From assembly GCA_036507115.1 (NCBI GenBank), contig DASXQO010000230.1, positions 1-62,693 on the forward strand: a stretch of 62,693 nucleotides of DNA, in the 5' to 3' direction. Shown here in pieces: positions 667-55,461 of this stretch. The notes under the pieces were generated by a model. That model saw only the letters and a program-made list of their open reading frames with translations, was not told the DNA's origin and made no database searches. This DNA is from Candidatus Eiseniibacteriota bacterium. Its GTDB lineage: Bacteria > Eisenbacteria > RBG-16-71-46 > SZUA-252. Position 1 is the stretch's first letter; each line of letters opens with the position of its first letter. The position numbers and the translations under genes are program-made.

Positions 667-1758
667 TCAGGGTTTCTGGACGAGGCTCAAGAGTACCCCC
701 CGGAGCGAGGTAAGCGAAGGTAGTTCATAGGTTTTAGCCGCTCCGATCGCGGGGGACAATACCATTCGAAGAGGTACTCGTCCACGCTTCTTGTCCTTCT
801 CGAGCGCCCTCCAGAACGCAGCATTGGGCGGGCGCTCGAGGCGCACCGGAAGCCCCAGGGATCGAAGCAGTTCCTCCGTGTCGCGCGCGTCGCCCGGATC
901 GAGCCCCGCGTGTCGCACGCTCATCCGGAGCGCCGCGACCATGCCGATCGAAACCGCCTCGCCGTGGGTGAGGCGCCCGTAGCCATACGACGCTTCGAGC
1001 GCGTGCCCGACCGTGTGGCCGAAATTGAGCGCCTGCCTCGCCCCGCGATCGTTCGGATCGCGCGAGACGTACCAGGCCTTTTCCGTGGCCGCGGCGCGGA
1101 TCAAGCTCTGGACGCGCGCGCCCTCCGGGTGTCCGGCGCTTCCCGCGAGGAGCCGTACGCCTCTGAGAATCGAGGGACGGCGGATCACGCCCATCTTCAC
1201 GATCTCCGCGAGGCCGGAGCGGAACGCGCGGGGCTTCAGCGTGCGGAGGACGTCGGGGTCGCAGAAGACCCCGCGCGGGTGGTGGAACGCCCCGAGGAGA
1301 TTCTTCCCGCCGGCGAGATTCACCCCGACCTTGCCGCCGATTCCCGCGTCCGCCTGCGCGAGAAGCGTCGTCGGAAAGACGAACCAGTCGAGCCCTCGCG
1401 CGTAGGTGGCGGCGGCGAACCCCGCGACGTCGGAGACGACTCCTCCTCCCAGAGCCAATACCGGAACCGAACGATCCACGCGCCATCCCGCCCAGCGATC
1501 GCAGAGGGACCGAACCCACGCGAGGGTCTTCGAACGCTCTCCCGGCGGAAGGGCGAGCACCCGGGGCTTGAATCCCGCGCGCTGGAGGCTCGCGAGGAAG
1601 CGCCCGCCGTGAAGACGGGCGACGGTGCGGTCGGTGACGACGAGGAGCGTCTCCGGAGCGCGCGCCCCGAGCAGGAGGCCCCCCGCCCGGTCGAGAAGTC
1701 CTGCATCGATCCGGACCGGATAGCGGATGCGCTCGCGGGCGACCCGGACCTGGATCAT
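667..1758 (-). CDS. aroB: 3-dehydroquinate synthase
   Basis: C-terminal 363 aa of tracked ORF 667..2367, starting MIQVRVARERIRYPV. Contains GGGVVSDVAGFAAATYARG and NFGHTVGHALE motifs. ATG 1758 overlaps the upstream stop (ATGA). Confidence 0.9.
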   Translation of the reverse strand: MIQVRVARERIRYPVRIDAGLLDRAGGLLLGARAPETLLVVTDRTVARLHGGRFLASLQRAGFKPRVLALPPGERSKTLAWVRSLCDRWAGWRVDRSVPVLALGGGVVSDVAGFAAATYARGLDWFVFPTTLLAQADAGIGGKVGVNLAGGKNLLGAFHHPRGVFCDPDVLRTLKPRAFRSGLAEIVKMGVIRRPSILRGVRLLAGSAGHPEGARVQSLIRAAATEKAWYVSRDPNDRGARQALNFGHTVGHALEASYGYGRLTHGEAVSIGMVAALRMSVRHAGLDPGDARDTEELLRSLGLPVRLERPPNAAFWRALEKDKKRGRVPLRMVLSPAIGAAKTYELPSLTSLRGVLLSLVQKP

Positions 1759-2723
1759 CGCGCGGAGAGCGTCTCCGCGATCGCCTGGAGCTCGCGCAGA
1801 TAGGGCAGCTTGGGCCTTCCCGGCGCGAAGACCGCAAGGTCCACGTAGAAGCGCTTCCCCTCGCGCGTCACCTCGTAGAAGCGATACGGTCCCGCGGCAC
1901 TCACCTCGGAGTCCTCCCACCGGCCGTGGATCTGACGCCCGGCGCCCGCGAGCTCCCCGGACGTGAGGGTCGGATCGATCCGATCGAGCGTGCGCTCGTT
2001 CGGACGGAAGATGCGCGCGAGCGACGCGCGGGCGCGCTTGAGATCGGCCGCCGGCGTCCCCCGACCGTCGGGCACGATTCGCAGCAGGCGCGTCGGGGGG
2101 CCCTGCTCGAGGAGGAGTACCGCGCGGGTCCTGGGATCGATCCGCACTTCGTATCCGCGCGGCACGCGGAGGCTGAATCCCAGGAGCTTCCCGAGCCTCC
2201 GCTCCGCGTGGGAATCGCGCGGGAGCGCCAGGAGCCGCGAGCGCACGGTGGCGAAGGTGGCGCGGTCGAGTTCGAGGAAGAGCCGATTCTGATATTCGGT
2301 CAAGAGTGGAAGGAGGTTCTCCCGCCTTTCGGTCCAGAACATTCCCGCGGCCTGGCCGCGGAGCCACACGTCGGGAGCGAACACGAATGGCTCCCGCGCG
2401 CCCGCGCGCAATCGACTCAGGGGCTCGAGCGGTTCGGGGATTTCATCCTTGGAACCGTAGCCGAAAAAGAGCACGGTCCGCGCACGGAACACCCGCGCGT
2501 CGTCTGCGGCCACGAGGCGCACGCTGTAGGCCGTCTCGTCCTCGATCCGGATCGCCGGGCGTTCGAGAACGGCGCGCAGGAGGAGAATCTCGGGAGAATC
2601 CGAGGGGAGCGACGTGACGACGCTGAGCTCGCGGCTTCCCCCCTCCGCGAAGGGACGCCCGCCACACGTGGTACACGTGATCGCGAGCGGCAAGAGAAGA
2701 ACCCCGGCGAACCTGCGCACCAT
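1755..2723 (-). CDS. Predicted lipoprotein of unknown function (possibly DUF4837-like)
   Basis: C-terminal 322 aa of tracked ORF 1755..3392. MVRRFAGVLLLPLAITCTTCGG looks like a signal peptide plus a lipobox-like LAITC. The family assignment is tentative. Confidence 0.6.
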   Translation of the reverse strand: MVRRFAGVLLLPLAITCTTCGGRPFAEGGSRELSVVTSLPSDSPEILLLRAVLERPAIRIEDETAYSVRLVAADDARVFRARTVLFFGYGSKDEIPEPLEPLSRLRAGAREPFVFAPDVWLRGQAAGMFWTERRENLLPLLTEYQNRLFLELDRATFATVRSRLLALPRDSHAERRLGKLLGFSLRVPRGYEVRIDPRTRAVLLLEQGPPTRLLRIVPDGRGTPAADLKRARASLARIFRPNERTLDRIDPTLTSGELAGAGRQIHGRWEDSEVSAAGPYRFYEVTREGKRFYVDLAVFAPGRPKLPYLRELQAIAETLSAR

Positions 2724-2772: not shown

Positions 2773-2828
2773 CGCGGCGGCCCCGAACTAGCGGCCGGAG
2801 CGCGGCGGCCCCGAACTAGCGGCCGGAG
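2773..2828. repeat. Perfect tandem duplication, 2 x 28 bp (cgcggcggccccgaactagcggccggag)
   Basis: Read directly: 2773-2800 and 2801-2828 are identical. The right copy contains the TAG stop (2816-2818, minus strand) of the HtrA-like gene. Confidence 0.95.
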
Positions 2829-4003
2829 GGTCCTTCGAGCTCCTTGATTCTTTTCTGGACTCTCTTTGCTTCCGCTTCGAGCTTCTGGCGTGATCGCTTC
2901 AGGCGCTCCAGCTCCCCGGCCCGGCCGGCCGGAGGAGCCATGGCGGGTGGCCGCACGGTGGCGTCGAGCGTGGTGCGCACCGGGAAGATCTCGGGGCCGC
3001 GCGAGACCGTCATCTCGATCTCGTCCCCCGGCCTCGACGCGTGCACGAGGGAGGTGATCTCGTCTCCGGAATGGATGACCGTCCCCTCGAACGCGAGGAT
3101 CCGGTCTCCCGGCTTGAGTCCCGCCCGGTCCGCCGGGCTCTTCGGGACGATGCCCTCCACGAGCACTCCGAGGCTGTCGGCGAGAATTCCACGGCGCATC
3201 TGGATCCCCAGAAACGCACGCCGGACGCTCCCGTATTCCTCGAGATCGTCCGCGATCCGTTGCAACTGATCGACCGGGAGCGCGATCAGGAGATCGCTCG
3301 GCTTGCGGTCGGAGCCGTCGGGCTCCGCGACGGGCGACGGGGGGGTGCGCGCGGACGCCTGCTCCGCCCGCCCGACCACGATCGCGACCCACTCCCCCCC
3401 CTCGTTCAGCACGGCCCCGCCGCTCGCGCCCGGATACGCGGACGCCTCGATTTCGACGATGTCGCCGGAATAGGGGAAGTCGACCCGCTCGCCGCGGCCG
3501 ACCACCTGACCGAGCGTGATCTGCGGCCGCGTGATGCTCACGTTGGCGATGACGGCCACCCAGGAGCCGGGTGCTACGGACTGCGGGGACGCCTGGCGGA
3601 GGGGCGTAAGCGGCGGCCCGTCCACAGAGAAGAGCGCGATGTTGGATTGGCGATCCACGCCGCGGATCCGGGCCTCGCGCTTCAGGCCCTCCGCCAGCAG
3701 CACGCTGAAGGAGCCGCCGGGAATCGCCATGCTCGCGGTGGTGAGGAGCCGTTGGGGGCTCAGGACCACCGCCGTGCCGATCAAACGCCGCAGCGGCCGG
3801 TCCGGCCGCGGCCGCTCCGACCCGGGCATGGCGACCAGGGTCACGACGCTGGTTCGCGCGGAATCGACGCCGATGAGGAGGGTGGCTTCTTCGGATCTCA
3901 GCGGGAGGATGCTCTGGGCAAGCGCCTGGGAAGACGCGACGACGAGCGATGCGACGGCGACGAGCGTGAGGGTGACTTGAGGCCGGATTCGGGTCACGGG
4001 CAT
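2816..4003 (-). CDS. HtrA/DegP-family protein with PDZ domain, predicted catalytically inactive (no His in the protease domain)
   Basis: Signal peptide MPVTRIRPQVTLTLVAVASLVVASSQALA. Trypsin-like fold motifs and GASGGAV at the serine site. LLTTASMAI stands where the TN-x-HV His motif is expected, and QSNIALFSV where SDIAL is expected. PDZ segment GVLVEGIVPKSPADRAGLKPGDRILAFEG. C-terminal coiled-coil-like ELERLKRSRQKLEAEAKRVQKRIKELE. Confidence 0.8.
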   Translation of the reverse strand: MPVTRIRPQVTLTLVAVASLVVASSQALAQSILPLRSEEATLLIGVDSARTSVVTLVAMPGSERPRPDRPLRRLIGTAVVLSPQRLLTTASMAIPGGSFSVLLAEGLKREARIRGVDRQSNIALFSVDGPPLTPLRQASPQSVAPGSWVAVIANVSITRPQITLGQVVGRGERVDFPYSGDIVEIEASAYPGASGGAVLNEGGEWVAIVVGRAEQASARTPPSPVAEPDGSDRKPSDLLIALPVDQLQRIADDLEEYGSVRRAFLGIQMRRGILADSLGVLVEGIVPKSPADRAGLKPGDRILAFEGTVIHSGDEITSLVHASRPGDEIEMTVSRGPEIFPVRTTLDATVRPPAMAPPAGRAGELERLKRSRQKLEAEAKRVQKRIKELEGPSGR

Positions 4004-4033: not shown

Positions 4034-4747
4034 CTAGAAGACGATGTACACGCCGTCGTCGGCAGTCCCGCTGACCGGAACGACGGTGGGATCCTGTCCT
4101 TGGCGACCGCGCTCGATATAGAACTGATCGTTGATGATTTCATCGTTGTAGAGCTGGCGCGGGATCCCGCCGTCCACGATCGAGTCGCGCCCGGCCGATG
4201 TCGGCTCCGAGGCGCTCGCGACGACCGAAGTCCGGCGTTGCGCCGGGGTGGCCCGTCCCGGCGAGGGTACGCTCGGTTCGGTCGAGATCGACGCGGAAGG
4301 CGAAGAAACATCCGGAGCGACCTGCGCGACCGTCGCGGGCTCTTGCGGCCGCGACGCGCTCGAGGGCGGCGCCGTGTGGTTCGAGCGCAACCAGTCATTC
4401 CCCACCGGGGAGACCAGGACCGCGAGGAACACGGCGCAGACGCCGGCGCCCGCCATGAAAACCGGCCTCAAGCGGGCGGGTACGAGGAGCTCGCGGATCA
4501 GTTCCGCGGCGCTCGGGCGAAGGCCTTCGCCGGAGCGGATCCGCGCGAACACATCCTCGTCGAAATGCGCGCTCGGCGCTACCTCGGGCATCCGTTCCAG
4601 AAGCGACATCGTTGCCCGCACCTCGCGCATGGCGAGCGAGCAGCGACGACACCCCATGAGATGCGCCTCCAGAGTGCGGCGCTCCTCCTGGCTGATCTCG
4701 TCTTCGATGTAGGACGAGAACAAGGACTCGACCGACCGGCAGTTCAT
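4034..4747 (-). CDS. Anti-sigma factor (zf-HC2 type), single-pass membrane protein
   Basis: HLMGCRRC (H-x3-C-x2-C) near the N-terminus. TM segment VFMAGAGVCAVFLAVLVSPV. Ser/Pro-rich periplasmic part ending ...DDGVYIVF. 4-nt ATGA overlap with the sigma gene upstream. Confidence 0.8.
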   Translation of the reverse strand: MNCRSVESLFSSYIEDEISQEERRTLEAHLMGCRRCSLAMREVRATMSLLERMPEVAPSAHFDEDVFARIRSGEGLRPSAAELIRELLVPARLRPVFMAGAGVCAVFLAVLVSPVGNDWLRSNHTAPPSSASRPQEPATVAQVAPDVSSPSASISTEPSVPSPGRATPAQRRTSVVASASEPTSAGRDSIVDGGIPRQLYNDEIINDQFYIERGRQGQDPTVVPVSGTADDGVYIVF

Positions 4748-5367
4748 GCGTCCTCCAGATTCAGATGTGGCTTGAGCCGTTCCTTCAACATCAACCGGGC
4801 GCGATTGATTCGCGATCGCACCGTCCCGCCCGGGATTCGGAGGATCTCTCCAACTTCTTCGTAGCTCAGTCCCTCGATGTCGCGCAGGACGACCGCCTCG
4901 CGATACCGGGCGGGAATTTTCTCGAGCGCCTCCGCCACGCGCCGGCGGATCTCGCTCGCGTTCAGGTCTTCATCGGGCAGGGGTTTCAGATCGGGGAACG
5001 CGAGCCCCTGCCCTCCGGAATCCTCTTCCATCGCGTCCAGGCTGAACGTGCCTTTGTGCCGGACGCGGCTCCGGATCTCGTTCTTGGTCAGATTGACCGC
5101 GATCGTGAAGATCCACGTCGAGAACTTGCCGCTTTTCCGGTAGCGCTCGCGGTTTCGGTAGACCCGGAGGAAGACCTCCTGGCTGATCTCCTCCGCGCGG
5201 TCCCGATCATTGATGAAGCGGCACACGAGGTTCATGATCCGCGAGCGATACCGCTGGACGAGCGCGCGAAACGCCGTCTCGGAGCCCAGGGCACAGCGCT
5301 CCATGACGTCTTCGTCGGTCAGCTCGGCTAATTCGAGCTTTTTCACTAAACGTAGCTCGCTGGGCAT
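4744..5367 (-). CDS. ECF (sigma-70 family, group 4) RNA polymerase sigma factor
   Basis: 207-aa C-terminal part of tracked ORF 4744..5562, starting MPSELRLVKK. Region 2 FRALVQRYRSRIMNLVCRFINDRDRAEEISQEVFLRVY. Region 4 YREAVVLRDIEGLSYEEVGEILRIPGGTVRSRINRAR. Confidence 0.9.
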   Translation of the reverse strand: MPSELRLVKKLELAELTDEDVMERCALGSETAFRALVQRYRSRIMNLVCRFINDRDRAEEISQEVFLRVYRNRERYRKSGKFSTWIFTIAVNLTKNEIRSRVRHKGTFSLDAMEEDSGGQGLAFPDLKPLPDEDLNASEIRRRVAEALEKIPARYREAVVLRDIEGLSYEEVGEILRIPGGTVRSRINRARLMLKERLKPHLNLEDA

Positions 5368-5384: not shown

Positions 5385-5412
5385 GATACACCGCGTCGAG
5401 TTCGCCGGTTCC
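5385..5412 (-). promoter_or_regulatory. Possible ECF-type autoregulated promoter (GGAAC ... GTATC)
   Basis: The minus strand reads GGAACC (5412-5407), an 17-nt spacer, then GTATC (5389-5385), in the 61-nt gap upstream of the ECF sigma gene. Only a loose match to AAC/-10 ECF patterns. Confidence 0.2.
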
Positions 5413-5428: not shown

Positions 5429-7108
5429 TTAGGGCTTGGAGAAGAGGGTGAGTCCCGCCGGGCTGGACGGGCCGCGCTTGCCGCGCCCCCGGGATTCGGC
5501 CGCCTTGGCCTCGCCATCCAGCCGTAGGGCCCGGCACACCCGGCCGAGCATGAACTCGGCATCGGAACCCGAGTCGCGGCAACGCACCGCGCGCCTCAAC
5601 AGATCTCTCGCTAACTCCAATTGCCCCATGCTGTAGCGGATACTTCCAAGCAGCGCCAGAGCCCGCCCATTCACGGGATCGAGTTCCACCGCACGATCGA
5701 GCCTCTGGAGCGCCCGATCCACCGCTCCCTGATTAAGATCTGATGCTGCGAGAAAGTAAAGGCACTCGGAATTCTCCCGGCCCAGGCTATTCAGTTTCTG
5801 GAAGGCCCATTCCGCCACCAGGCTGTCGCCGATCGAGGCCGCGGTCTGGCCCAATTCCGCGTAGAGCATGGGATTGTCGGGTCCCCGCAAGGCCCCCTCC
5901 CGCATGAGCGAGACGGCCTCCTCCGGATGCCGGAGGAGAATGTAGCAGAGAGCGCCCGCCAGCACCCGGCGGGGATTGTTCAGCAACCCGTCCCGGATCT
6001 GCTCCAGCGTCCGGACGCCGGTTCGCCTGTCGCCGACCTTGATCTCCAGATAGGCGACCATGAGCGACTCTTCCTGCGCCAGAGCGCGGAGTTTCAGGAG
6101 CTTGTGGTAGCAGCGGAGCGCCGGCTTGTGATACGCGAGCGCCACCAGCGCCCGGGCCTTGATGGGCAGCGCGGCCCGTTGGTCCCCAAGCGGTTTCACC
6201 GCTTCAAGTGCCGCTCGATAGTCGCCGTCGCGCAGGAGCGCGCGGCCAGCTTCGACGCGGACGTCGATCGGGTCGAAACCGCGCTGCGCCATCCGGCCCA
6301 GGAGAGCCTTCGCACCCTTCCGGTCCCCCTCGCGGAACAGGTAGGAGAGATACGCGGCCACCTGCTCGGGGACCGCGTCCGAGGCTTCGGCGCGACGGCG
6401 AAGGAGCCGCTCCTCGAGCGCCGTGTCACCCAGCCGCCGGGCCAGCTCCACACCCAGTCCCAAGGTCCGGGGGTCGTCCGGGTTGATTTCGAGGGCGAGC
6501 TGGAGCGCGTCCCCGGCCTCGTCCAACCGGCCGTCCTCGAGCGCCATGCCCAATACGCCGGACGCCACCCATCCGAAATCGGGCATGAGCTCGTCCGTGC
6601 GCCTGAGATCGGCCAGCGCCGCCTCGTACTTCTTGTCCAGTTCGTGCGCGAGTGCGCGGAGGGCGTAGAGCTCCGGGCGCGCGCCCATACGCCGGAGCGG
6701 CGGAGTGAGCGCCTTCACGGCGACCGAGGCTTCCCCCGCGCGGAGCCGCATCCGTCCCACGAGCATCGCCGCGTCGGCATTGAGGCTGTCGCACGCGAGC
6801 GAGCGGTCTCCCCATTCGAGCGCCCGCACGTCGTCGCCGGAGGACTCGAGGATCTGGGCGAACCGCGAAGCGGCGTAGCTCGATCCGGGGTCTTCCGTCG
6901 AGAGCGCCTCGGCCCACACGGCGGCTCCTTCCAGATTGCCGCTCTCCTGCTCGAGGGTCGAGCGCACGAGGAATTCGATGGTCGATGGAACGATGCGGGA
7001 GGACAGGGGCTCTGCGGGGGAGGATCCGGCGAACGCCGCGACGAGAATCAAGGGCAGCATTCCCCTACCCATCCATGAGGCCAGGGAAGATTTTGGGTCT
7101 CTGTTCAC
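5429..7108 (-). CDS. Secreted TPR-repeat protein
   Basis: Signal-peptide-like MGRGMLPLILVAAFAGSSPAEP followed by many TPR-like repeats. The start is uncertain: GTG 7108, or an ATG 12 or 16 codons downstream. Confidence 0.7.
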   Translation of the reverse strand: MNRDPKSSLASWMGRGMLPLILVAAFAGSSPAEPLSSRIVPSTIEFLVRSTLEQESGNLEGAAVWAEALSTEDPGSSYAASRFAQILESSGDDVRALEWGDRSLACDSLNADAAMLVGRMRLRAGEASVAVKALTPPLRRMGARPELYALRALAHELDKKYEAALADLRRTDELMPDFGWVASGVLGMALEDGRLDEAGDALQLALEINPDDPRTLGLGVELARRLGDTALEERLLRRRAEASDAVPEQVAAYLSYLFREGDRKGAKALLGRMAQRGFDPIDVRVEAGRALLRDGDYRAALEAVKPLGDQRAALPIKARALVALAYHKPALRCYHKLLKLRALAQEESLMVAYLEIKVGDRRTGVRTLEQIRDGLLNNPRRVLAGALCYILLRHPEEAVSLMREGALRGPDNPMLYAELGQTAASIGDSLVAEWAFQKLNSLGRENSECLYFLAASDLNQGAVDRALQRLDRAVELDPVNGRALALLGSIRYSMGQLELARDLLRRAVRCRDSGSDAEFMLGRVCRALRLDGEAKAAESRGRGKRGPSSPAGLTLFSKP

Positions 7109-15769: not shown

Positions 15770-16902
15770 GCCGCCTCCGCCGCCCGGGCGATCACCGCCC
15801 GCACCGCTTCGTCCATGTCGCTCAGCGCGATGAGACCACGCTGGCCCAGAAGCTCGCGCGCTTCCTTTTCGTTCGTCCCGGTGAGCCGGATCACGATCGG
15901 GATCCGCACCCGCGACCGGTCGAGTGCCGTGAGGAGCCCCCGCGCCACGTCGTCGCATCGGGTGATGCCGCCGAAGATGTTGAAGAGCACCGCCCGCACG
16001 CGGGGATCCTTGGTGAGGATGCTCATCGCGGCCCCGACCTTGTCCGGGTTCGAGGATCCGCCGATGTCGAGGAAGTTCGCGGGCTTTCCGCCGTGGAACT
16101 GGATCAGGTCCATCGTCGCCATCGCGAGCCCCGCCCCGTTCACGACGCATCCGATCGATCCATCGAGCTTCACGTACGAGAGGCCGCGCTCGCGGGCTTC
16201 GATCTCGCCCGGGTCCTCGGCGGAGAGGTCGCGCCACGCGGCGAGATCCGGGTGGCGCTCCAGCGCGTTGTCGTCGAGCACGATCTTGGCGTCGAGAGCC
16301 AGCACCTCTCCCTGCTTCGTCACGGCGAGCGGATTGATTTCCGCGAGAGAGGCGTCCCGCTCCCGGTACACCCGCTCGAGCCGACGGAGGATCGGGACGA
16401 TCTGTTTCTGTACGGCAGCATTCGGGTCCAGGAAGCGGGCGCACGCACGGGCGCGGTAGGCCGGAAGCCCGCGGAGGTCGATCGGAATCTTCAAAATCTT
16501 CTCCGGCGTCGAGCGCGCGACCTCTTCGATCTCGACGCCGCCCGAGGGGCTCACCATGAGAATCGGGGCCTCGATCCTTCGATCGAGCACCATCCCCGCG
16601 TAGTACTCGCGCGCGATGTCGGCCGAAGGGGTGACGAGCACCCGGCTCACACGGTGTCCCCGTATCTCCATCCCGAGGATGCGCGCGGCCTCGCGCGAGA
16701 GCTCCTCCGGGCCGCGCACCACCTTGACTCCCCCGGCCTTGCCGCGTCCTCCGATCAGGATCTGGGCCTTGAGGACCACCGGATATCCGAACCGCGCGGC
16801 CAGGGCGAGCGCGTCCTCGGTGCTTCCGGCCACGTCCCCCGGAGGGACCGGGATGCCCGCCGCGCGGAAGAGATCCTTCGACTGATACTCGTGCAGGTTC
16901 AC
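15766..16902 (-). CDS. sucC: Succinyl-CoA synthetase beta subunit
   Basis: [12 protein letters not shown] start, ATP-grasp region, and [18 protein letters not shown] 16902 overlaps the upstream stop (GTGA). Confidence 0.9.
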
Positions 16903-18347
16903 CGCTTCCCTCTCGTGACCCGCGCGGACTTGCGCGCCGCCTTCTTCAGGCCGCCCTTCCGCAGAGACGCGGCTTCTCCGCCCCGCGCCTTCACCGCGCT
17001 CCGCTTCCGCCCGGATTCCTCGAGCGAATCCAGCGAGCGCCGGATCACGTCTTCGAGCTTGGGCCGTCCGATCTCCTCCAGCTCGTAACCCACCCGGACC
17101 GCGGGGCGCTTCATGGAGACGAGACGCCTCAGATCGATGGGGGTCGCGACGACGACCACGTCGCACGCGGTTGCGTTGATCGTCCTTTCCAGATCCCGGA
17201 TCTGCTCCTTGGAATATCCCATCGCGGGGAGGAGCGCGCCGACGTTCGGATATTGCTTGAACGTGTCCTTGATGCCCCCCACCAGCCACGGCCGTGGATC
17301 CACGATCTCGCTCGCGCCGTGCCGGCGCGCGGCGATGACGCCGGCGCCGTATTTCATCTCGCCGTGCGTCAGGGTGGGTCCGTCCTCGATCACGAGCGCC
17401 CGCTTCCCCAAGATCCACTCCGGATGGTCCACGGTGATCGGCGAGGCGGCGTCCACGATGACGGCGCCGGGATTCAGCGTTTGGACGCTCCGGCGCACCG
17501 CTTCGATGTTCTCGTAGTCCGTCGTCGTCTCCTTGTTGATCACGACCACGTCCGCGAGCCTCACGTTCGTCTCGCCGGGATGGTAGGTGCGCTCGTGGCC
17601 CGGGCGGTGCGGATCGGCCACGACGATCTGCAGATCCGGCTTGAAGAACGAGAAGTCGTTGTTGCCGCCGTCCCACACGATGACATCCGCCTCGCGCTCC
17701 GCCTGACGGAGGATCTCCGCGTAGTCGATCCCCGCGTAGACGATCGTGCCGCGGTCGAGATGCGGTTCGTATTCCTCCCGCTCCTCGATCGTGCACTTCT
17801 GTCGCTCCAGGTCCGCATAGGTCTCGAAGCGCTGCACTCCCTGGCGGGAGAGGTCTCCGTAGGGCATCGGGTGGCGGATCGCGACGACGCGCTTCCCCAT
17901 CGCTTTCAAAACCTCGCACACCTTGCGCGTGGTCTGGCTCTTTCCGGCGCCCGTGCGCACGGCGTTCACGGCGATGACGGGAACCTTGCTCGTGAGCTGG
18001 GTCGCCTTCGGGCCCATGAGCGTGAAGTCGCAGCCCAGGCCCGCGATCCAGGACGCCTTGTGCATCACGTACTCGTGCGAAACATCGCTGTAGGCGAAGA
18101 CCACTTCGTCCACGTCGTGTTCGCGGATCAGCTCGGGGAGCTCCTGCTCGGAGACGATCGGGATGCCTTTGGGGTACCGCCCGCCGGCCAGGGAGGGGGG
18201 ATAGCGGCGGTCATCGATCCCCGGGATCTGGGCGGATGCCGTGAATGCCACGACGAGGTACTCGGGGCGTCGCTTGAAGAACATGTTGAAGTTGTGAAAA
18301 TCGCGTCCGCCCGCCCCCATGATCACTACGCGTCTGGGCTTACTCAC
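16899..18347 (-). CDS. COG2403-type P-loop protein (cyclic 2,3-diphosphoglycerate synthetase-like) with a Lys/Arg-rich tail
   Basis: [18 protein letters not shown]-loop [11 protein letters not shown] and VVINK. I prefer GTG 18347 ((M)[10 protein letters not shown]), preceded by GAAGGAGG, over the tracked ATG 18392. The family name is from memory and tentative. Confidence 0.6.
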
Positions 18348-18489
18348 TCGAGGCACACCTCCTTCAGGGGTTTCGTGCAAGGACCCGCGCATCCACAGAA
18401 TGGGGCGGAAGCTTCGAGCCGCTCGCCCGCAGCCGGATGACGCAGGTCAGGGTCGCACTAGATGCACTACGTTGGGAAAACACAACACT

Positions 18490-27212: not shown

Positions 27213-28457
27213 CTAACGCTTGAGCGCGGCGTCGAGGTTCCGGCGCGTCAACGGAAGACTCAGGCTGGGGAGTTCCGCGCGCGCGGACCCCGAGTCCGGC
27301 GCGGCCGGCTCCCCGGGCGAGAGAAAGACCACCACCCCCGGTTTCACGATGCCGAGCCCCTCGAGCCGTTCCAGGACCCAAGGACCGCCCCGAGGCGGGA
27401 GCGTCCGCTCGAGGAGAACCAGGGACGGGGCCCTCCCCGCGGCGACGCGCTCGAGCGCCTGGATCCCGTGCGGTGCCTCCTCGACGACAAGCCCGTGCTG
27501 CTCGAGGAGAATCCGGACCCACGCGCGGACGAGCGGCGAGCGGTGCGCGATCAGCGCCAGCTCGGGATCGGGGGGTTCCTGCGCCCCCATCGCCCGCGCG
27601 GATTCCGACTCCGGATCGGGCAGCTCGTACGCGTATCGGTCCCCCCAGGGGATCGGCACCAAGCCCAGGTCGGAGGCGCCGATCGAGTCCCCTTTGCCCA
27701 GGAGCAGCACCCCGCCGGGCACCAGCGCCCGCGAGAGGTTCTCGAGCGCCGTCCGCCGCCCGTCCGGGGTGAGCGAGGACAGAAACCCGCGCGCGAGGAC
27801 GAGGTCGAAGGTCCCGAGGCAGAGGAGCGCGTCGGATTCGCAGAGATTGACCCGCGCGAATCGGACGTAGGGCCTGAGCGCGCTCGCGACGATTTCGCCG
27901 TCCCGCTCCGTGAAGTAGCGTTCGCGAAGCTCCGTGGGGATCGGCGCCGCGCGCGAGGCGGGGTAGGAGGCGCGGCGGGCGATCGCGACGGCGCGCGCGC
28001 TCAGATCGACGCCGATCACTTCGAATTCGAACGCGGCCGACCGGGAACCCGCCTCAGCGAGCGCGATCGCGAGCGAATAGGCTTCCTCGCCGGTGCCGCA
28101 CCCCGCGCTCAAACACCGGAAGCGGCCCGGGTCGCCGCGCGCGCGCGGTCTGCCGGGATCGGACGCCATCTCGAAGAGGGGCGAGAAATCCCCCGGCTCG
28201 CCGAAGACGCGAGACTCGTTCGCCGTGAGGGTCTCCACGAGGTCGTCCCAGGCCCGGCTGCCCGCGCCGTAGAGGAGATATTCCGCGTAGGCTTCCAGGC
28301 TGTCGAACGCGCGGTCCTGGATCCGATTGCGAAGCCGCTGCGCCACGCCCTCCGGAGCGCACTCCTTGAGCGAGAGCCCCCGCGTCTCGGCGAGACGCTT
28401 CTCCAGCGCCGCGACCGGGCGGCGCGTGAGGTCTTTGCCCCCCCGTTCAGCCGCCAT
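27213..28457 (-). CDS. CheR-type SAM-dependent methyltransferase fused to a degenerate (pseudo) receiver domain
   Basis: CheR_N-like region plus FRCLSAGCGTGEEAYSLAIAL SAM motif. The C-terminal ~115 aa have the CheY fold pattern, but AHRS replaces the acidic pair, E350 (LVLLERTLPP) sits at the phospho-Asp position, and LP replaces KP. Confidence 0.75.
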   Translation of the reverse strand: MAAERGGKDLTRRPVAALEKRLAETRGLSLKECAPEGVAQRLRNRIQDRAFDSLEAYAEYLLYGAGSRAWDDLVETLTANESRVFGEPGDFSPLFEMASDPGRPRARGDPGRFRCLSAGCGTGEEAYSLAIALAEAGSRSAAFEFEVIGVDLSARAVAIARRASYPASRAAPIPTELRERYFTERDGEIVASALRPYVRFARVNLCESDALLCLGTFDLVLARGFLSSLTPDGRRTALENLSRALVPGGVLLLGKGDSIGASDLGLVPIPWGDRYAYELPDPESESARAMGAQEPPDPELALIAHRSPLVRAWVRILLEQHGLVVEEAPHGIQALERVAAGRAPSLVLLERTLPPRGGPWVLERLEGLGIVKPGVVVFLSPGEPAAPDSGSARAELPSLSLPLTRRNLDAALKR

Positions 28458-29868
28458 GCGCCCCCGCCGATTCGATCCGGTATTCCTTGAGCTTCGTCCG
28501 GAGCGTCTGCCTCGAGATGCCGAGCCACTCCGCCGCCTTCGTCTTGTTTCCTCCCGCCTGCCCGAGCGCCATCTCGATCGCGATCCGCTCCGCCTGCGCG
28601 AGCGTCGTGATCCCCCCTTCCCCCTTGAGACGCGTCTCGAGCACCGCGGCGCTCCCGCCCGAGGCGCCGACGATCTCGAGGGGAAGATGCTCGGGGAGGA
28701 TCCACTCGTCGCTCTCGAGGAGGATCGCGCGCTCGATCACGTTCCGGAGCTCGCGCACGTTCCCGGGCCAGCGGTAGGCGAGGAGAAGCTCCAGCGCGCG
28801 GTCGGTGGGCCCCTTCACGTTTCTTCCGAGCTCCCGGTTCCAGTGGCCGACGAAGTGGTCGATCAGGGGCGGGATGTCCTCGGGGCGCTCGCGGAGCGGC
28901 GGGACGAGGATGCGGATCACGTCCAGCCGGAAGAAGAGGTCCTCCCGGAATTTCTCCTGCTGCACGAGTGTTTTCAGATCCCGGTTGGTCGCCGCGATGA
29001 TCCGGGTCTCGACCAGGATGTCGCTCACGCCCCCGAGTCTGCGAAACCGCTTCATGTCGAGGGCGCGGAGGAGCTTCGACTGGAGCGCCAGGCTCATCTC
29101 GCCGATCTCGTCGAGGAAGAGGGTGCCTCCGTTCGCGATCTCCATCAGCCCCTTCTTCGTCCGCTTCGCGTCGGTGTGGCTCCCTCGCTCGTAACCGAAA
29201 AGCTCGCTCTCGAGAAGGGTGTCGGGGATCGCGCTGCAGTTCACCTCCACGAAGGGGCCGTCGTGGCCGGGCCCCAGGTCGTGGATCTCGCGCGCGAGGA
29301 GCTCCTTGCCCACCCCGGTCTCTCCCTGGATCAGCACGGTGGAGCTGCCGGTGGTCGCGATTTTCCGGATCGTCTCGAAGATCTTCGCGAGCTTCGAGCT
29401 TCCGCCCACGATGAGGGTCGAGCCCGCGCGGCGGCGCTCGACGGCGCGGAGCCGCGTCACCTCCTCGGACAGCCGCGTCTGGGAGAGCGCGTTCTTGATC
29501 ACGAGCTTCATGTGGTCCAGCTCGAAGGGCTTTCCGATGTAGTCGAAACAGCCGGCCTTGGTCGCCTCCACCGCGGACTCGAACTTCCCGAACGCGGTCA
29601 TGATCACGACCTGCATCATGGGAAACCGCGACCGGATTTCTTTCAGGAGATCGAGTCCGCTTCCGTCGGGAAGCTTCTGGTCGAGCAGGGCGAGGTGGTA
29701 TTCCTCTCGATTCAGGATCTCCAGCGCCGACGCTTGATCTCCGGCCGTCTCCACCCGATACCCCTCCTCCGAGAGCCCCTCCTTGAGCGCGTACCGGAGC
29801 GTCTTCTCGTCGTCCACGACCAGAATGCCGAAGGTCTGCCTAGCGAGGATTACCACGCCTGTCTCCAT
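28447..29868 (-). CDS. NtrC-family response regulator (REC-AAA+-HTH) with a degenerate GAFTGA loop
   Basis: Canonical REC (VVDDE, LLDQKLPDGSG, IMTAF, GKPF). Walker A GETGVGKE, Walker B LFLDEIGE, WPGNVRELRN, and a Fis-type HTH. ELFGYERGSHTDA stands where ELFGHEKGAFTGA is expected. An alternative start is GTG 29856. Confidence 0.9.
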   Translation of the reverse strand: METGVVILARQTFGILVVDDEKTLRYALKEGLSEEGYRVETAGDQASALEILNREEYHLALLDQKLPDGSGLDLLKEIRSRFPMMQVVIMTAFGKFESAVEATKAGCFDYIGKPFELDHMKLVIKNALSQTRLSEEVTRLRAVERRRAGSTLIVGGSSKLAKIFETIRKIATTGSSTVLIQGETGVGKELLAREIHDLGPGHDGPFVEVNCSAIPDTLLESELFGYERGSHTDAKRTKKGLMEIANGGTLFLDEIGEMSLALQSKLLRALDMKRFRRLGGVSDILVETRIIAATNRDLKTLVQQEKFREDLFFRLDVIRILVPPLRERPEDIPPLIDHFVGHWNRELGRNVKGPTDRALELLLAYRWPGNVRELRNVIERAILLESDEWILPEHLPLEIVGASGGSAAVLETRLKGEGGITTLAQAERIAIEMALGQAGGNKTKAAEWLGISRQTLRTKLKEYRIESAGAHGG

Positions 29869-31036
29869 GTCGTTTCTCCACGGGTAGGTCGATGAGCACG
29901 CTCGTCCCCTGCCCGACCACGCTTTCGATCGAGATGGAGCCTCCGTGCTCGCGGATGATGGTCTGGCAGATACTGAGACCGAGCCCGGTCCCCTGGGTGC
30001 GCGTCGTGTAGAACGGATCGAAGACGCGCGCCAGCACGGCCGCGGGAATCCCGGGACCGTTGTCCTGGATGCGCACCTCGACGAGATCGAGGAGCGGCGC
30101 CGGGCGCCGCGCGCCGAGCCGGTCCCCCGAGCGCCGCCCGAGCCGCGAGCGCTCCGCGAGGCGCTTGCGGACCGGGCCGACGCCGATCGTGAGCTCTCCT
30201 CCCTGGTCCAGCGCCTGGAGCGCGTTCATGAGCACGTTGAGAATGACCTGTAATGTCTGATCCAGGTCGACGTAGACGTCGGGGATCGAATCGGCGCGAT
30301 CCACCCGGATGAGCACGTTCTGCCGCACCGCGACTTCGTGGACGAGCATGAGCGCCTTCTCCAGGGCAGGCAGGATCGATTGGCGCTGGAGTTTCGGCGT
30401 GGCGGGACGGGCGAACTGGAGCAGCCCGGTCACGATGCGGTCGAGGCGCGAGACTTCCTCGAGGATGAGATCGATGAACTGCGCCCGCGGATCCCCCACT
30501 TCCAGCCTGCGCTTCATGACCTGGGCCGAGGTGCCGATTCCCGCCAGGGGGTTGCGGATCTCGTGGGCGACTCCCGCCGCCAGCGCGCCGAGCGAGGCGA
30601 GCCGGTCGCGGCGCCGCCACTGCTCCTCCTGCGCCTTCTGCTCCCGCAAATCCTGAAACAGGGCGATCGTCCCCTGAAGCGAACCGTCGAGCGATTCGAG
30701 CGGAAGGAGCCTCAGCCCGACCGGAAGCACGTCTCCGGACCGGGTTACGACCTCCACCTCGCGCGCCTCCTCCGGCGCGGCACAGGCGCCGGGCGGCACG
30801 TGCGACTCCCCACGCGGCGCGCGCAGGATCCTCGCGACGTCCTCCCCTTCGACTTCCTCCGCGCTGTAGCCGAGAAGCACAGATGCCGCCGGGTTGATGG
30901 CCAGGATGGACGCGTCCCGGCCGATCGCGATCACCCCGAACGGCGCGTGCCGGAGAAAGCTCCACGCCGCGTCTACCGCGTGCTGGCCCGGCGGCGAAGG
31001 CTCGCCGCCCGCGTGGAGAACGCTCCGCGTCCTCAC
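29840..31036 (-). CDS. Soluble PAS-domain sensor histidine kinase
   Basis: No TM segment. PAS (FGVIAIGRDASILAINPAASVLLGY). H-box AHEIRNPL, N-box NVLMNALQA, G1 DNGPGI, and G2 GTGLGL. The GTG start overlaps the HEAT gene stop (GTGA). Confidence 0.9.
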   Translation of the reverse strand: MRTRSVLHAGGEPSPPGQHAVDAAWSFLRHAPFGVIAIGRDASILAINPAASVLLGYSAEEVEGEDVARILRAPRGESHVPPGACAAPEEAREVEVVTRSGDVLPVGLRLLPLESLDGSLQGTIALFQDLREQKAQEEQWRRRDRLASLGALAAGVAHEIRNPLAGIGTSAQVMKRRLEVGDPRAQFIDLILEEVSRLDRIVTGLLQFARPATPKLQRQSILPALEKALMLVHEVAVRQNVLIRVDRADSIPDVYVDLDQTLQVILNVLMNALQALDQGGELTIGVGPVRKRLAERSRLGRRSGDRLGARRPAPLLDLVEVRIQDNGPGIPAAVLARVFDPFYTTRTQGTGLGLSICQTIIREHGGSISIESVVGQGTSVLIDLPVEKRHGDRRGNPR

Positions 31037-32838: not shown

Positions 32839-32921
32839 CTTATCCGCGCTCGACTCCGCATCCAGGGGGGAAGGGAACTCAGGGCGCCGGTAATCTTCTT
32901 ACCAGCGACCTTTCGGCCCGG

Positions 32922-37983: not shown

Positions 37984-38076
37984 GGCGTCGCTCCTCGATT
38001 CTCTTTGGTTTCGTATCCGGACCGGATCCGCGGCGGATCGGGTGACTCGCGGCCGGTACCGGGCTCCGTGGTTGGG

Positions 38077-38091
38077 AGCACGATACGTGCC
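38077..38091 (-). promoter_or_regulatory. Sigma54-type (-24/-12) promoter candidate upstream of the MglA-type GTPase gene
   Basis: The minus strand reads cGGCACGtatcgTGCTc against the consensus TGGCACG-N4-TTGCW, with correct GG-to-GC spacing. It lies about 95 nt upstream of ATG 37983. An AT-rich tract at 38127-38146 lies further upstream. Confidence 0.35.
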
Positions 38092-38262
38092 GCCGTGTCT
38101 CGGGAAAGAGAACGGTGGGTGGCGGCTTCATCTTTAGGAAAAATGCTGCTTCGTTCGGGTGGGTTCCCGGCGGAAGGGGCCCACCACGAGGGTGCGGGCG
38201 GAGAATCATGCAGTTCGCACGGCGACTGACAGATAGCGGTCCCGCGCCGCCGCGGAGGTCCG

Positions 38263-39136: not shown

Positions 39137-39180
39137 CCCTTCGTGCCGGTCTCCCGCCATGAGTTCCACGCGGCGCGCCC

Positions 39181-47211: not shown

Positions 47212-47239
47212 CGCGTGACTCCTCCCTCCTCCGCTGGCG

Positions 47240-48469: not shown

Positions 48470-48482
48470 CAGGTCCCTCCGG

Positions 48483-50683: not shown

Positions 50684-50689
50684 GCGCTC

Positions 50690-55458: not shown

Positions 55459-55461
55459 CGC

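What the first reader, a model, noticed from the sequence alone, without database searches (positions are those of the whole stretch)
2816..4003. HtrA/DegP homologue with no histidine in its protease domain, encoded in an ECF sigma / anti-sigma operon
Seen: the 395-aa secreted protein aligns to DegP through the protease and PDZ domains. S91 stands at the catalytic His position (LLTTASMAI versus vvTNnHVv) and N121 at the catalytic Asp position (RQSNIALFSV versus RSDIALIQI). GASGG keeps the Ser. The first His in the whole protein is H311, inside the PDZ domain. It also has an unusual C-terminal coiled-coil-like tail (ELERLKRSRQKLEAEAKRVQKRIKELE). The gene order is ECF sigma, zf-HC2 anti-sigma, then this gene. 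Established: DegS-type PDZ proteases initiate anti-sigma (RseA) cleavage, and a Ser/His/Asp triad is required for HtrA catalysis. Inference: this is a pseudoprotease that binds rather than cleaves. It could act as an RseB-like protector or a PDZ-based sensor of the anti-sigma factor.
Basis: partly seen in the sequence, partly recalled or inferred. Interest (0 to 1): 0.65.

Follow-up and report, generated by a model that had tools for sequence, protein, structure and literature searches.

The report
Dead HtrA protease in sigma-factor operon
This gene encodes a DegS/DegP-like protein that has lost its catalytic residues yet is strictly conserved beside an envelope-stress sigma factor and its membrane anti-sigma factor, so it most likely holds the anti-sigma factor's tail rather than cutting it.

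Summary
ORF 2816-4003(-) encodes a 395-aa HtrA-fold protein: Trypsin_2 domain, one PDZ domain and a C-terminal heptad helix. Ser91 sits at the catalytic His position and Asn121 at the Asp position. The only His residues are 311 and 321.

This is not a sequencing error or a decaying gene. In 108 full-length homologues, nearly all from Candidatus Eisenbacteria, position 91 is Ser in 106 and position 121 is Asn in all 108. The nucleophile position drifts (S56/T38/A8/G6). dN/dS is 0.10-0.27.

The order ECF sigma, zf-HC2 anti-sigma, pseudo-HtrA held in every locus where upstream DNA was available. It sits behind a conserved GGAAC-N16-GTGTA promoter-like motif. Four distant relatives (~30% identity) with the same S/N/S pattern, one of them in a Zixibacteria assembly, have the same three-gene order.

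One new point: the anti-sigma periplasmic region is predicted disordered, yet it ends in a nearly invariant D-[DG]-V-[YF]-[IV]-x-F-COOH. That resembles the OMP/MucE peptides that DegS and AlgW PDZ domains bind.

Best reading: a non-catalytic HtrA that binds this tail and gates anti-sigma proteolysis. The binding step is inferred, not shown. I rate it a new variant of a known kind, of moderate to high interest.

The parts
5387..5412 (-). ECF-type promoter-like motif GGAAC-N16-GTGTA, 20 nt upstream of the sigma gene start codon
   Evidence: The motif has identical 16-nt spacing in the 14 loci where a sigma start was located and its upstream DNA extracted. It is the only exact match in the 62.7-kb window. 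Allowing 1 mismatch gives 3 hits against 0.71 expected. Its function as a promoter is inferred.
4744..5367 (-). ECF (RpoE/SigW-like) sigma factor, 207 aa
   Evidence: Pfam Sigma70_r2 plus Sigma70_r4_2. NCBIfam sigma70-ECF scores 108 bits against a cut-off of 42.9, and RpoE 144.8 bits, below its equivalog cut-off. The start was set by comparison with orthologues. It is highly conserved across the orthologues read.
4034..4747 (-). Single-pass anti-sigma factor, 237 aa: N-terminal zf-HC2 anti-sigma domain, transmembrane helix, disordered periplasmic region
   Evidence: Pfam zf-HC2 7.7e-10. AF2 predicts helices at 3-72 and 90-112, and residues 121-237 have pLDDT 38-51. The gene overlaps the sigma gene by 4 bp.
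4412..4480 (-). Transmembrane segment of the anti-sigma factor (residues ~90-112)
   Evidence: Hydrophobic stretch PARLRPVFMAGAGVCAVFLAVLV, predicted as a helix.
4037..4060 (-). Anti-sigma C-terminal motif DDGVYIVF-COOH, the candidate PDZ ligand
   Evidence: 26 of 26 syntenic loci end in D-[DG]-V-[YF]-[IV]-x-F. Among 116 full-length homologues from an independent search, 115 end in F. Position -6 is D in 113, -4 is V in 113, -3 is Y/F in 112 and -2 is I/V in 114.
2816..4003 (-). HtrA-family pseudoprotease, 395 aa including the stop codon at 2816-2818
3380..3778 (-). Degenerate trypsin-like (S1C) domain, residues 76-208. S91 is at 3731-3733, N121 at 3641-3643 and S194 at 3422-3424.
   Evidence: Pfam Trypsin_2 covers profile positions 1-144 of 144. 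Register, codons, family conservation.
2990..3214 (-). PDZ domain (residues 264-338) with an intact R-x-F-L-G-I carboxylate-binding loop
   Evidence: Pfam PDZ_2 3.2e-13. L265 and G266 are invariant, and R261 and F264 are at least 90% conserved.
2837..2923 (-). C-terminal heptad-repeat helix (residues 361-389), followed by a short P/S/G spacer and a basic last residue
   Evidence: AF2 predicts a single helix at 361-389. It is conserved in all 30 aligned members. The last residue is R, H or K in 105 of 108.
1755..2723 (-). DUF4837-like putative lipoprotein, 92 nt downstream. Possibly the fourth gene of the unit.
   Evidence: Pfam DUF4837 7.4e-9. tblastn found it directly downstream of the pseudo-HtrA gene in 21 of the loci fetched (two of these are cut off by a contig end). 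It was not found in a few lineages and is fragmentary in L002/L003.
5429..7108 (-). Secreted or anchored TPR protein, 559 aa. A conserved upstream neighbour whose membership of the unit is uncertain.
   Evidence: Pfam TPR families. Same position in L001, L002, L004, L043, L044 and the distant L045. It lies upstream of the promoter-like motif.

Best explanation
The gene encodes a catalytically inert member of the HtrA (S1C) family. It keeps the trypsin fold, the substrate-cleft motifs and a ligand-competent PDZ domain, and it has gained a C-terminal coiled-coil helix.

It is the third gene of an apparently autoregulated operon: ECF sigma, single-pass anti-sigma, pseudo-HtrA. This operon is a fixed feature of Candidatus Eisenbacteria and recurs in Zixibacteria-like lineages.

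Proposed mechanism, all steps inferred:
1. In the periplasm the pseudo-HtrA, probably a trimer, binds the disordered periplasmic tail of the anti-sigma factor.
2. Its PDZ domain captures the invariant Phi-x-F-COOH end. That end resembles the OMP/MucE peptides bound by DegS and AlgW.
3. Upstream conserved linear motifs may lie in the dead active-site cleft as an uncleavable pseudo-substrate.
4. This shields the anti-sigma factor from site-1 and site-2 proteolysis, as RseB/MucB do by a different fold.
5. C-termini of unassembled outer-membrane proteins would compete for the PDZ, free the tail and allow degradation of the anti-sigma factor and release of sigma.

Shown: loss of the triad, purifying selection, conserved synteny, the promoter-like motif, the tail motif and the intact PDZ loop. 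Inferred: physical binding, the direction of regulation and the inducing signal.
For: **Dead active site.**
- S91 and N121 sit at the His and Asp positions in alignments to solved DegQ and DegP-like chains.
- The family counts are Ser in 106/108 and Asn in 108/108. The nucleophile position is S56/T38/A8/G6.
- This protein has no His in its protease domain.

**Functional protein.**
- dN/dS is 0.10-0.27 in eight orthologue pairs.
- The most conserved blocks surround the former active site: TTASMA, DRQSNIALF, G-x-x-G-G-A-V-L-N-E.
- The fold is HtrA.

**Dedicated to the sigma module.**
- The sigma/anti-sigma/pseudo-HtrA order is found in L001, L002 and L004 and in 26/26 genome loci with upstream DNA.
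- It is also recovered when starting from the anti-sigma protein.
- The genes are tightly spaced: a 4-bp overlap and a 30-nt gap with a GGAG upstream of the ATG.
- A conserved GGAAC-N16-GTGTA motif lies upstream of sigma.
- Four distant S/N/S HtrA-likes (~30% identity) have the same three-gene order. Two of them sit next to tamB-type outer-membrane biogenesis genes (one with tamA as well), and one of those two is in a Zixibacteria assembly.

**Tail as ligand.**
- The anti-sigma periplasmic region is disordered but ends in a nearly invariant motif at the exact C-terminus.
- The distant versions also end in an aromatic residue...VISF...EAY...RPY...TDF.
- DegS and AlgW PDZ domains bind YYF, YQF and WVF C-termini such as DNRDGNVYYF and SVRDELRWVF (PMC8545111; PDB titles).
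- The PDZ carboxylate-binding loop R-x-[FY]-L-G-[IV] is conserved.

**Diderm host.** A lipid A acyltransferase gene is present in the window.
Against: - No interaction evidence exists. The complex prediction could not be run.
- Co-variation between the tail -1 residue and PDZ columns cannot be separated from phylogeny.
- The tail motif has Ile at -2 and the aromatic residue at -3. That is not the Y-x-F register of classical DegS ligands.
- The tail could instead be read by another PDZ protein, such as a true DegS/AlgW, Prc/Ctp or the S2P RseP. None of these could be searched for in these genomes.
- HtrA genes also sit in ECF operons simply as regulon members. Examples from my own knowledge are mucD in algU-mucABCD and htrA in mycobacterial sigE-rseA-htrA.
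- The direction of regulation (protector or activator) is undetermined.
Confidence: 0.5

Rival explanations
1. Chaperone/holdase effector only. The dead HtrA is a regulon member that binds unfolded envelope proteins, as protease-dead DegP S210A does. It is co-transcribed with its sigma factor but does not touch the anti-sigma factor.
For: The HtrA fold, the conserved cleft motifs and the PDZ are retained. HtrA genes occur in ECF operons as effectors or indirect regulators, for example mucD and mycobacterial htrA (my own knowledge). The pseudo-HtrA gene lies near tamB/tamA-like outer-membrane biogenesis genes in distant lineages.
Against: This does not explain why the anti-sigma factor keeps an invariant aromatic C-terminus on a disordered tail. 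It also does not explain why the three genes stayed contiguous in every locus examined, down to ~30% identity. A general chaperone would not obviously gain from losing proteolysis in every lineage.
Confidence: 0.22
2. Positive adaptor or activator. The pseudo-HtrA presents the anti-sigma tail to an active site-1 protease, or allosterically activates one, possibly in mixed oligomers with an active HtrA paralogue. This is analogous to MamO promoting MamE-dependent proteolysis.
For: MamO is an inactive HtrA homologue that activates MamE-dependent proteolysis (PMC4794232). The same binding evidence applies as for the best explanation.
Against: No active HtrA paralogue lies in the window or next to the operon in any locus read. 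A positive element inside an autoregulated operon would give runaway activation unless it were countered. Untested.
Confidence: 0.15
3. It is still a protease that uses a non-canonical mechanism, for example Ser194 with another base.
For: Ser194 and the GxSGG oxyanion motif are retained in this protein and its near clade. S91 and N121 are themselves invariant, so they do something.
Against: Position 194 is Thr, Ala or Gly in 52 of 108 orthologues that otherwise conserve the site. There is no His anywhere in this protein's protease domain. No alternative conserved general base is apparent among the invariant residues.
Confidence: 0.05
4. A decaying, functionless HtrA relic or a sequencing artefact.
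For: None beyond the loss of the triad.
Against: dN/dS is 0.10-0.27. The gene is intact and full-length in more than 100 clusters and 29 species-level genomes. The substituted residues are invariant.
Confidence: 0.02

Closest known systems
DegS / AlgW site-1 proteases of the sigmaE-RseA and AlgU-MucA pathways
   Same: HtrA fold with a single PDZ domain and an N-terminal hydrophobic segment. Structural top hits include DegS and AlgW. Both are linked to an RpoE-like ECF sigma and a single-pass anti-sigma factor. The PDZ is of the type that binds aromatic-x-Phe C-termini.
   Different: The catalytic His and Asp are absent and the nucleophile is not conserved. The gene lies inside the sigma operon, whereas degS and algW are unlinked (my own knowledge). 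It carries an extra C-terminal coiled coil. The Phi-x-F C-terminus is on the anti-sigma factor itself rather than on OMPs or MucE. The NCBIfam DegS score of 65 is far below the cut-off of 423.
RseB / MucB periplasmic protectors of RseA / MucA
   Same: The proposed role is the same: a periplasmic protein encoded in the sigma operon that binds the anti-sigma periplasmic domain and blocks site-1 cleavage until a stress ligand displaces it (role of RseB/MucB as described in PMC8545111).
   Different: There is no sequence or fold relationship. RseB and MucB are lipid-binding proteins of a different fold, and no such Pfam hit is found here. The ligand here would be a peptide C-terminus rather than LPS.
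MamO (and inactive MamE duplicates) of magnetotactic bacteria
   Same: A bacterial HtrA-family pseudoprotease retained under selection for a non-catalytic role. Thr occurs at the nucleophile position in some members of both families (PMC4794232).
   Different: MamO binds transition metals through a di-His motif and acts in magnetosome biomineralisation. This protein has no His in its protease domain. Its genomic context is also different, an ECF operon.
MucD (algU-mucABCD) and mycobacterial HtrA (sigE-rseA-htrA)
   Same: An HtrA-family gene encoded downstream of an ECF sigma/anti-sigma pair (gene orders from my own knowledge). MucD is among the structural hits.
   Different: Those proteins are active proteases with intact triads. 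MucD has two PDZ domains. This protein is inactive, has one PDZ domain and has a coiled-coil tail.

Membership tests
HtrA / MEROPS S1C superfamily (homology) | Trypsin-like (chymotrypsin-fold) domain followed by at least one PDZ domain | tested here: met
   Pfam Trypsin_2 64.8 bits (cut-off 27.6) and PDZ_2 50.2 bits (cut-off 27). Foldseek top hits are DegQ, DegP, DegS, AlgW and MucD at E ~1e-21 to 1e-23.
HtrA / MEROPS S1C peptidases (active enzymes) | His-Asp-Ser catalytic triad at the conserved positions | tested here: not met
   S91 is at the His position and N121 at the Asp position. The same holds in 106/108 and 108/108 homologues. The Ser position is S56/T38/A8/G6.
DegS-type site-1 protease | Equivalog-level similarity to DegS (NCBIfam TIGR02038 / NF008147) | tested here: not met
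   65.4 and 58 bits against cut-offs of 423 and 408.
DegS-type site-1 protease | N-terminal membrane anchor | tested here: inconclusive
   The N-terminal hydrophobic segment TLTLVAVASLVVA is followed by ALA-Q. It could be a cleaved signal peptide or an anchor. No predictor was available.
DegS-type site-1 protease | Cleaves the anti-sigma periplasmic domain when its PDZ binds OMP C-termini | not testable with these tools
   This needs biochemistry. Cleavage is unlikely given the missing triad.
RseB/MucB family | MucB_RseB fold or domain | tested here: not met
   The only Pfam hits are Trypsin_2 and PDZ. Any resemblance is functional only.
MamO-type pseudoprotease | Degenerate triad in an HtrA-like protease domain | tested here: met
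MamO-type pseudoprotease | Surface di-histidine metal-binding motif and magnetosome-island context | tested here: not met
   The protease domain has no His. The context is fab/rnc/aroB housekeeping genes plus an ECF operon. The NCBIfam MamE hit covers the PDZ only, at 34 bits against a cut-off of 800.
ECF sigma / class I (zf-HC2) anti-sigma module | Sigma70 regions 2 and 4 only, with an adjacent co-directional anti-sigma factor carrying an N-terminal zf-HC2 motif (H-x3-C-x2-C) and one transmembrane helix | tested here: met
   Sigma70_r2 and r4_2, and zf-HC2 at 39 bits (cut-off 22.2). TIGR02937 scores 108 bits against a cut-off of 42.9. The transmembrane helix is at 90-112.
ECF sigma / class I (zf-HC2) anti-sigma module | Autoregulatory ECF-type promoter (GGAAC-like -35 element) upstream of the operon | tested here: inconclusive
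   A conserved GGAAC-N16-GTGTA motif is found in the 14 loci compared and is unique in the window. There are no transcription data.
PDZ domain competent for C-terminal peptide binding | Carboxylate-binding loop (R/K-x-x-x-Phi-G-Phi) | tested here: met
   The R261-A-F-L-G-I266 loop has L265 and G266 invariant and R261 and F264 at least 90% conserved. Actual binding was not tested.

The most novel reading that the evidence does not exclude
A whole class of envelope-stress switches, in Eisenbacteria, Zixibacteria and other uncultured diderm lineages, would have replaced the DegS 'allosterically activated protease' logic with a 'competitive-displacement' logic.

In this reading a dead, coiled-coil-trimerised HtrA is the stoichiometric periplasmic receptor for an OMP-mimicking C-terminal degron carried by the anti-sigma factor itself. 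The tail lies as an uncleavable pseudo-substrate across the PDZ and the former active site. Unassembled OMP C-termini displace it and expose the anti-sigma factor to RIP.

The S/N/S substitution would then be an ancient shared marker of a distinct, widespread regulatory HtrA subfamily rather than scattered decay.
Probability: 0.25. Interest if true: 0.75.

Novelty: new variant of a known kind. Interest (0 to 1): 0.6.

Why it matters
ECF sigma/anti-sigma envelope-stress signalling is understood mainly from the E. coli and Pseudomonas systems. There, an active HtrA protease (DegS or AlgW) reads OMP C-termini and cuts the anti-sigma factor, and an unrelated protein (RseB or MucB) protects it.

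Here the HtrA scaffold itself appears to have been converted into a non-cutting, operon-encoded partner. The OMP-like C-terminus has moved onto the anti-sigma factor.

If confirmed, this would be:
- a second well-defined class of bacterial HtrA pseudoproteases after MamO
- a clean example of a protease turned into a receptor or gatekeeper
- a testable model for stress sensing in phyla with no cultured members

The S-N-S signature and the anti-sigma tail motif also give a simple rule for correcting the current 'serine protease Do / S1-C' annotations of these genes.

Tried and rejected
- **Complex prediction.** I tried a linker fusion of the pseudo-HtrA and the anti-sigma tail with paired orthologue rows. 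No structural test of the interaction was therefore possible.
- **Co-variation.** I compared the tail -1 residue (V/I, T or E) with every pseudo-HtrA column in 29 paired loci. Many columns track the three clades equally well, including non-PDZ ones. The signal cannot be separated from phylogeny. The E283/G284 to M/V-K swap in the '...YIEF' clade is only suggestive.
- **HtrA paralogue.** A family HMM search of all window ORFs found only this gene. Whole genomes could not be searched, so the presence of an active DegS, Prc or RseP is unknown.
- **ECF group assignment.** Casas-Pastor et al. (PMC7826278) do not mention HtrA, PDZ or trypsin in the main text, and no supplements are held.
- **Literature.** Searches for a catalytically dead HtrA in an ECF operon found nothing relevant beyond MamO.
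- **Rejected: decaying pseudogene or sequencing error**.
- **Rejected: alternative register placing a His in the active site.** It is impossible for this protein because there is no His before residue 311. H84, present in about half of the orthologues, lies seven residues upstream in a variable position.
Full report
**1. What is in the sequence**

The ORF at 2816-4003 on the minus strand encodes 395 aa. Pfam finds a full-length Trypsin_2 domain at residues 76-208 (64.8 bits) and a PDZ domain at 261-338. The NCBIfam models for DegP, DegQ, DegS and HhoA all hit, but far below their equivalog cut-offs.

phmmer alignments to solved HtrA structures fix the register:
- LLTTAS91MA lies under VLTNNH82VI of E. 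coli DegQ.
- RQSN121IAL lies under DQSD112IAL.
- GAS194GG lies under GNA(S187A)GG.

The codons are AGC, AAC and AGC. The protein has only two His residues, 311 and 321, both in the PDZ domain.

An AlphaFold2 model built on 30 family sequences has mean pLDDT 73. It shows the two beta-barrels, the PDZ domain and a single long C-terminal helix at 361-389. Its best PDB matches are DegQ, DegP, DegS, AlgW and MucD, at E ~1e-21 to 1e-23.

**2. It is a conserved pseudoprotease, not an accident**

A search of 5.8 billion proteins returned 120 listed homologues at 49-100% identity. Where named, almost all are attributed to Candidatus Eisenbacteria. A scan of species-representative genomes found the gene in 29 assemblies, again nearly all labelled Eisenbacteria.

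In 108 full-length sequences:

| Position | Residue counts |
|---|---|
| 91 (His position) | Ser 106/108 |
| 121 (Asp position) | Asn 108/108 |
| 194 (nucleophile) | Ser 56, Thr 38, Ala 8, Gly 6 |

The flanking motifs TTASMA, DRQSNIALF and G-x-x-G-G-A-V-L-N-E are among the best conserved parts of the protein. Pairwise dN/dS in eight orthologue pairs is 0.10-0.27.

So His and Asp were lost before the family diversified, and the nucleophile is no longer under selection. The protein as a whole is, including the replacement residues Ser91 and Asn121. That is the signature of a repurposed protease scaffold.

**3. The genomic module**

Directly upstream on the same strand lie two genes:
- a zf-HC2 anti-sigma factor at 4034-4747, separated from the pseudo-HtrA by a 30-nt gap with a GGAG before the ATG
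- an RpoE/SigW-like ECF sigma factor at 4744-5367, overlapping the anti-sigma gene by 4 bp

The order fabF-rnc-TPR protein-sigma-anti-sigma-pseudo-HtrA-(DUF4837-like lipoprotein)-aroB is conserved in contigs carrying homologues of 50-75% identity. In 26 of 26 genome loci with upstream DNA the anti-sigma gene directly precedes the pseudo-HtrA. Starting instead from anti-sigma homologues recovers the same arrangement.

The motif GGAAC-N16-GTGTA lies 20 nt upstream of the sigma start codon, at 5387-5412. Its spacing is identical in the 14 loci where I could extract the sigma upstream region. It is the only exact match in the window. It looks like an autoregulated ECF promoter, but this is an inference.

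The window is otherwise core chromosome. It carries plsX, fabH and fabF, rnc, aroB, a lipid A acyltransferase gene, recG and the dcw cluster from mraW to ftsZ. The lipid A acyltransferase gene points to an LPS-containing outer membrane.

**4. The anti-sigma tail**

AlphaFold2 predicts the following for the anti-sigma factor:
- a helical cytoplasmic anti-sigma domain
- one transmembrane helix at residues 90-112
- a periplasmic region at 121-237 with no autonomous fold (pLDDT 38-51)

Most of that region is variable and rich in S, P and A. The last ~45 residues carry conserved linear motifs: Y-x-D-E-[IY]-[IV]-x-D-x-F, then P-x-[IV]-x-P-V, then the end motif.

The protein ends in D-[DG]-V-[YF]-[IV]-x-F-COOH in 26 of 26 syntenic loci. 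In an independent set of 116 full-length homologues, 115 end in Phe. Position -6 is Asp in 113, -4 is Val in 113, -3 is Tyr or Phe in 112, and -2 is Ile or Val in 114.

A motif anchored to the exact C-terminus of a disordered tail is what a PDZ ligand looks like. It also resembles the peptides that activate DegS and AlgW through their PDZ domains, DNRDGNVYYF/YQF and SVRDELRWVF (PMC8545111; PDB titles). The register differs by one residue.

The pseudo-HtrA keeps the PDZ carboxylate-binding loop R-x-[FY]-L-G-[IV], with L265 and G266 invariant.

**5. The module is older and wider than this family**

An exhaustive HMMER search of 1.84 billion cluster representatives shows the Eisenbacteria family is sharply isolated. 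Scores are 503 and 368 bits for the two full-length representatives and at most 176 bits beyond the family and its fragments.

Among the best 118 hits with an aligned protease domain, only about 35 keep His/Asp/Ser. Many of the rest share the same Ser...Asn...Ser pattern at about 30% identity. Four such proteins could be examined with their upstream DNA, and all four follow an ECF sigma gene and an anti-sigma-like gene:

| Protein | Context | Anti-sigma end |
|---|---|---|
| P0265 | Same rnc-TPR-...-aroB synteny | ...TVISF |
| P0267 (Zixibacteria) | Upstream of tamB-tamA | ...REAY |
| P0252 cluster | Upstream of a DUF748/AsmA-type (TamB-like) gene | ...RRPY |
| P0262 cluster | Sigma and anti-sigma directly upstream | ...GTDF |

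A fifth protein (P0425, Zixibacteria) lies at a contig end, so its upstream genes could not be read. The three of the four from the Zixibacteria-type and P0262 lineages also end in a coiled-coil helix. P0265 has no clear one.

The combination of ECF sigma, a single-pass anti-sigma factor with an aromatic C-terminus, and a dead HtrA with a PDZ domain and usually a coiled coil is therefore a recurrent module in several uncultured diderm lineages.

**6. How it most likely works**

Shown:
- an HtrA scaffold without a catalytic triad, under purifying selection
- an obligatory genetic link to a sigma/anti-sigma pair
- a ligand-competent PDZ domain by sequence criteria
- an invariant PDZ-ligand-like C-terminus on the anti-sigma factor's disordered periplasmic tail

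Inferred: the pseudo-HtrA binds that tail. The PDZ would take the C-terminus, and upstream motifs may occupy the dead cleft as an uncleavable pseudo-substrate. This would gate regulated proteolysis of the anti-sigma factor, most simply as a protector that unassembled OMP C-termini displace. HtrA proteins are trimers, and the added coiled coil could stabilise that trimer. This too is inference.

I put about 0.5 on this overall statement. The sub-claims differ:

| Sub-claim | Confidence |
|---|---|
| Non-catalytic and functional | >0.9 |
| Dedicated part of the sigma module | ~0.8 |
| Direct tail binding | ~0.45 |

Rivals:
- A chaperone-only regulon member (0.22). This is plausible by analogy with mucD and mycobacterial htrA, but it leaves the tail motif and the strict contiguity unexplained.
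- A MamO-like positive adaptor or activator of a real protease (0.15; PMC4794232).
- A non-canonical active protease (0.05). This is contradicted by Thr, Ala or Gly at the nucleophile position in half the family.
- A functionless relic (0.02). This is contradicted by the dN/dS values.

**7. Comparison with known systems**

By homology the protein belongs to the HtrA/S1C superfamily. It fails the defining catalytic feature of the peptidases and the equivalog thresholds for DegS, DegP and DegQ. It should be filed as a non-peptidase homologue, not as 'serine protease Do' as current annotations have it.

Functionally it may resemble RseB or MucB, but it is unrelated to them. It shares the pseudoprotease concept with MamO, but not MamO's metal-binding motif or its context.

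I found no paper describing a dead HtrA wired into an ECF operon, or an anti-sigma factor carrying an OMP-like C-terminus. The literature tool covers only open-access text, so this absence is weak evidence.

**8. Verdict**

The regulatory role is plausible, and new circumstantial evidence strengthens it: the tail motif, the promoter-like motif and the recurrence in distant lineages. It remains untested.

I rate it a new variant of a known kind, with interest 0.6.

**Unexplained details**
- The last residue of the pseudo-HtrA is basic in 105 of 108 members.
- Ser91 and Asn121 are invariant, and I have no explanation for what they now do.
- The roles of the conserved TPR and DUF4837-like neighbours are unknown.

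Noticed in passing
window 5387-5412 (-): GGAAC-N16-GTGTA motif 20 nt upstream of the ECF sigma start codon. It is conserved with identical spacing in the 14 orthologous loci compared and is the only exact match in the window. It is probably the autoregulated ECF promoter. In the more distant clades (L002, L004, L016, L031, L034) the GTGTA lies only 3-5 nt before the ATG, which would imply a leaderless mRNA there.
   Followed up: partly
window 1755-2723 (-): A DUF4837-like putative lipoprotein gene lies 92 nt downstream of the pseudo-HtrA. It is found in that position in most orthologous loci fetched from genomes, was not found in a few lineages, and is reduced to fragments in L002/L003. It may be a fourth member of the unit. 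Its function is unknown.
   Followed up: partly
window 5429-7108 (-): A 559-aa TPR protein with an N-terminal hydrophobic segment is a conserved upstream neighbour of the sigma gene in all Eisenbacteria loci read and in the distant L045 lineage. It is absent from the Zixibacteria-type loci.
   Followed up: no
window 2819-2836 (-), last residues of the pseudo-HtrA: After the coiled-coil helix the family has a short P/S/G spacer, and the very last residue is basic in 105 of 108 members (R 88, H 15, K 2). This is reminiscent of Lpp (coiled coil plus a C-terminal basic residue). It remains unexplained.
   Followed up: partly
L045, L047, L049, L050 (related loci): Distant (~30% identity) HtrA-like proteins with the same Ser/Asn/Ser pattern also follow an ECF sigma gene and an anti-sigma-like gene. 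In L047 (Zixibacteria) they sit next to tamB and tamA, and in L049 next to a DUF748/AsmA-type gene. Their anti-sigma factors end in F or Y. Of the 118 best-scoring HtrA representatives to the query with an aligned protease domain, only ~35 keep His/Asp/Ser.
   Followed up: partly
window 28450-32898 (-): Three adjacent genes: a sigma-54-dependent response regulator (Response_reg + Sigma54_activat + HTH_8), a PAS histidine kinase and a 621-aa HEAT-repeat protein. This looks like a two-component unit with an unusual HEAT-repeat partner.
   Followed up: no
window 16902-18446 (-) and 36727-38127 (-): Two long ORFs (515 and 467 codons) have coding-like GC3 but no Pfam match at E <= 1e-5.
   Followed up: no
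window 39163-40062 (+); 45982-61880 (-): A lipid A biosynthesis acyltransferase gene is present, so the host is probably a diderm with LPS. A dcw cluster is also present, with mraW, mraY, murG, murC, ftsA and ftsZ identified, and recG lies nearby. The window is core chromosome, not a mobile element.
   Followed up: no
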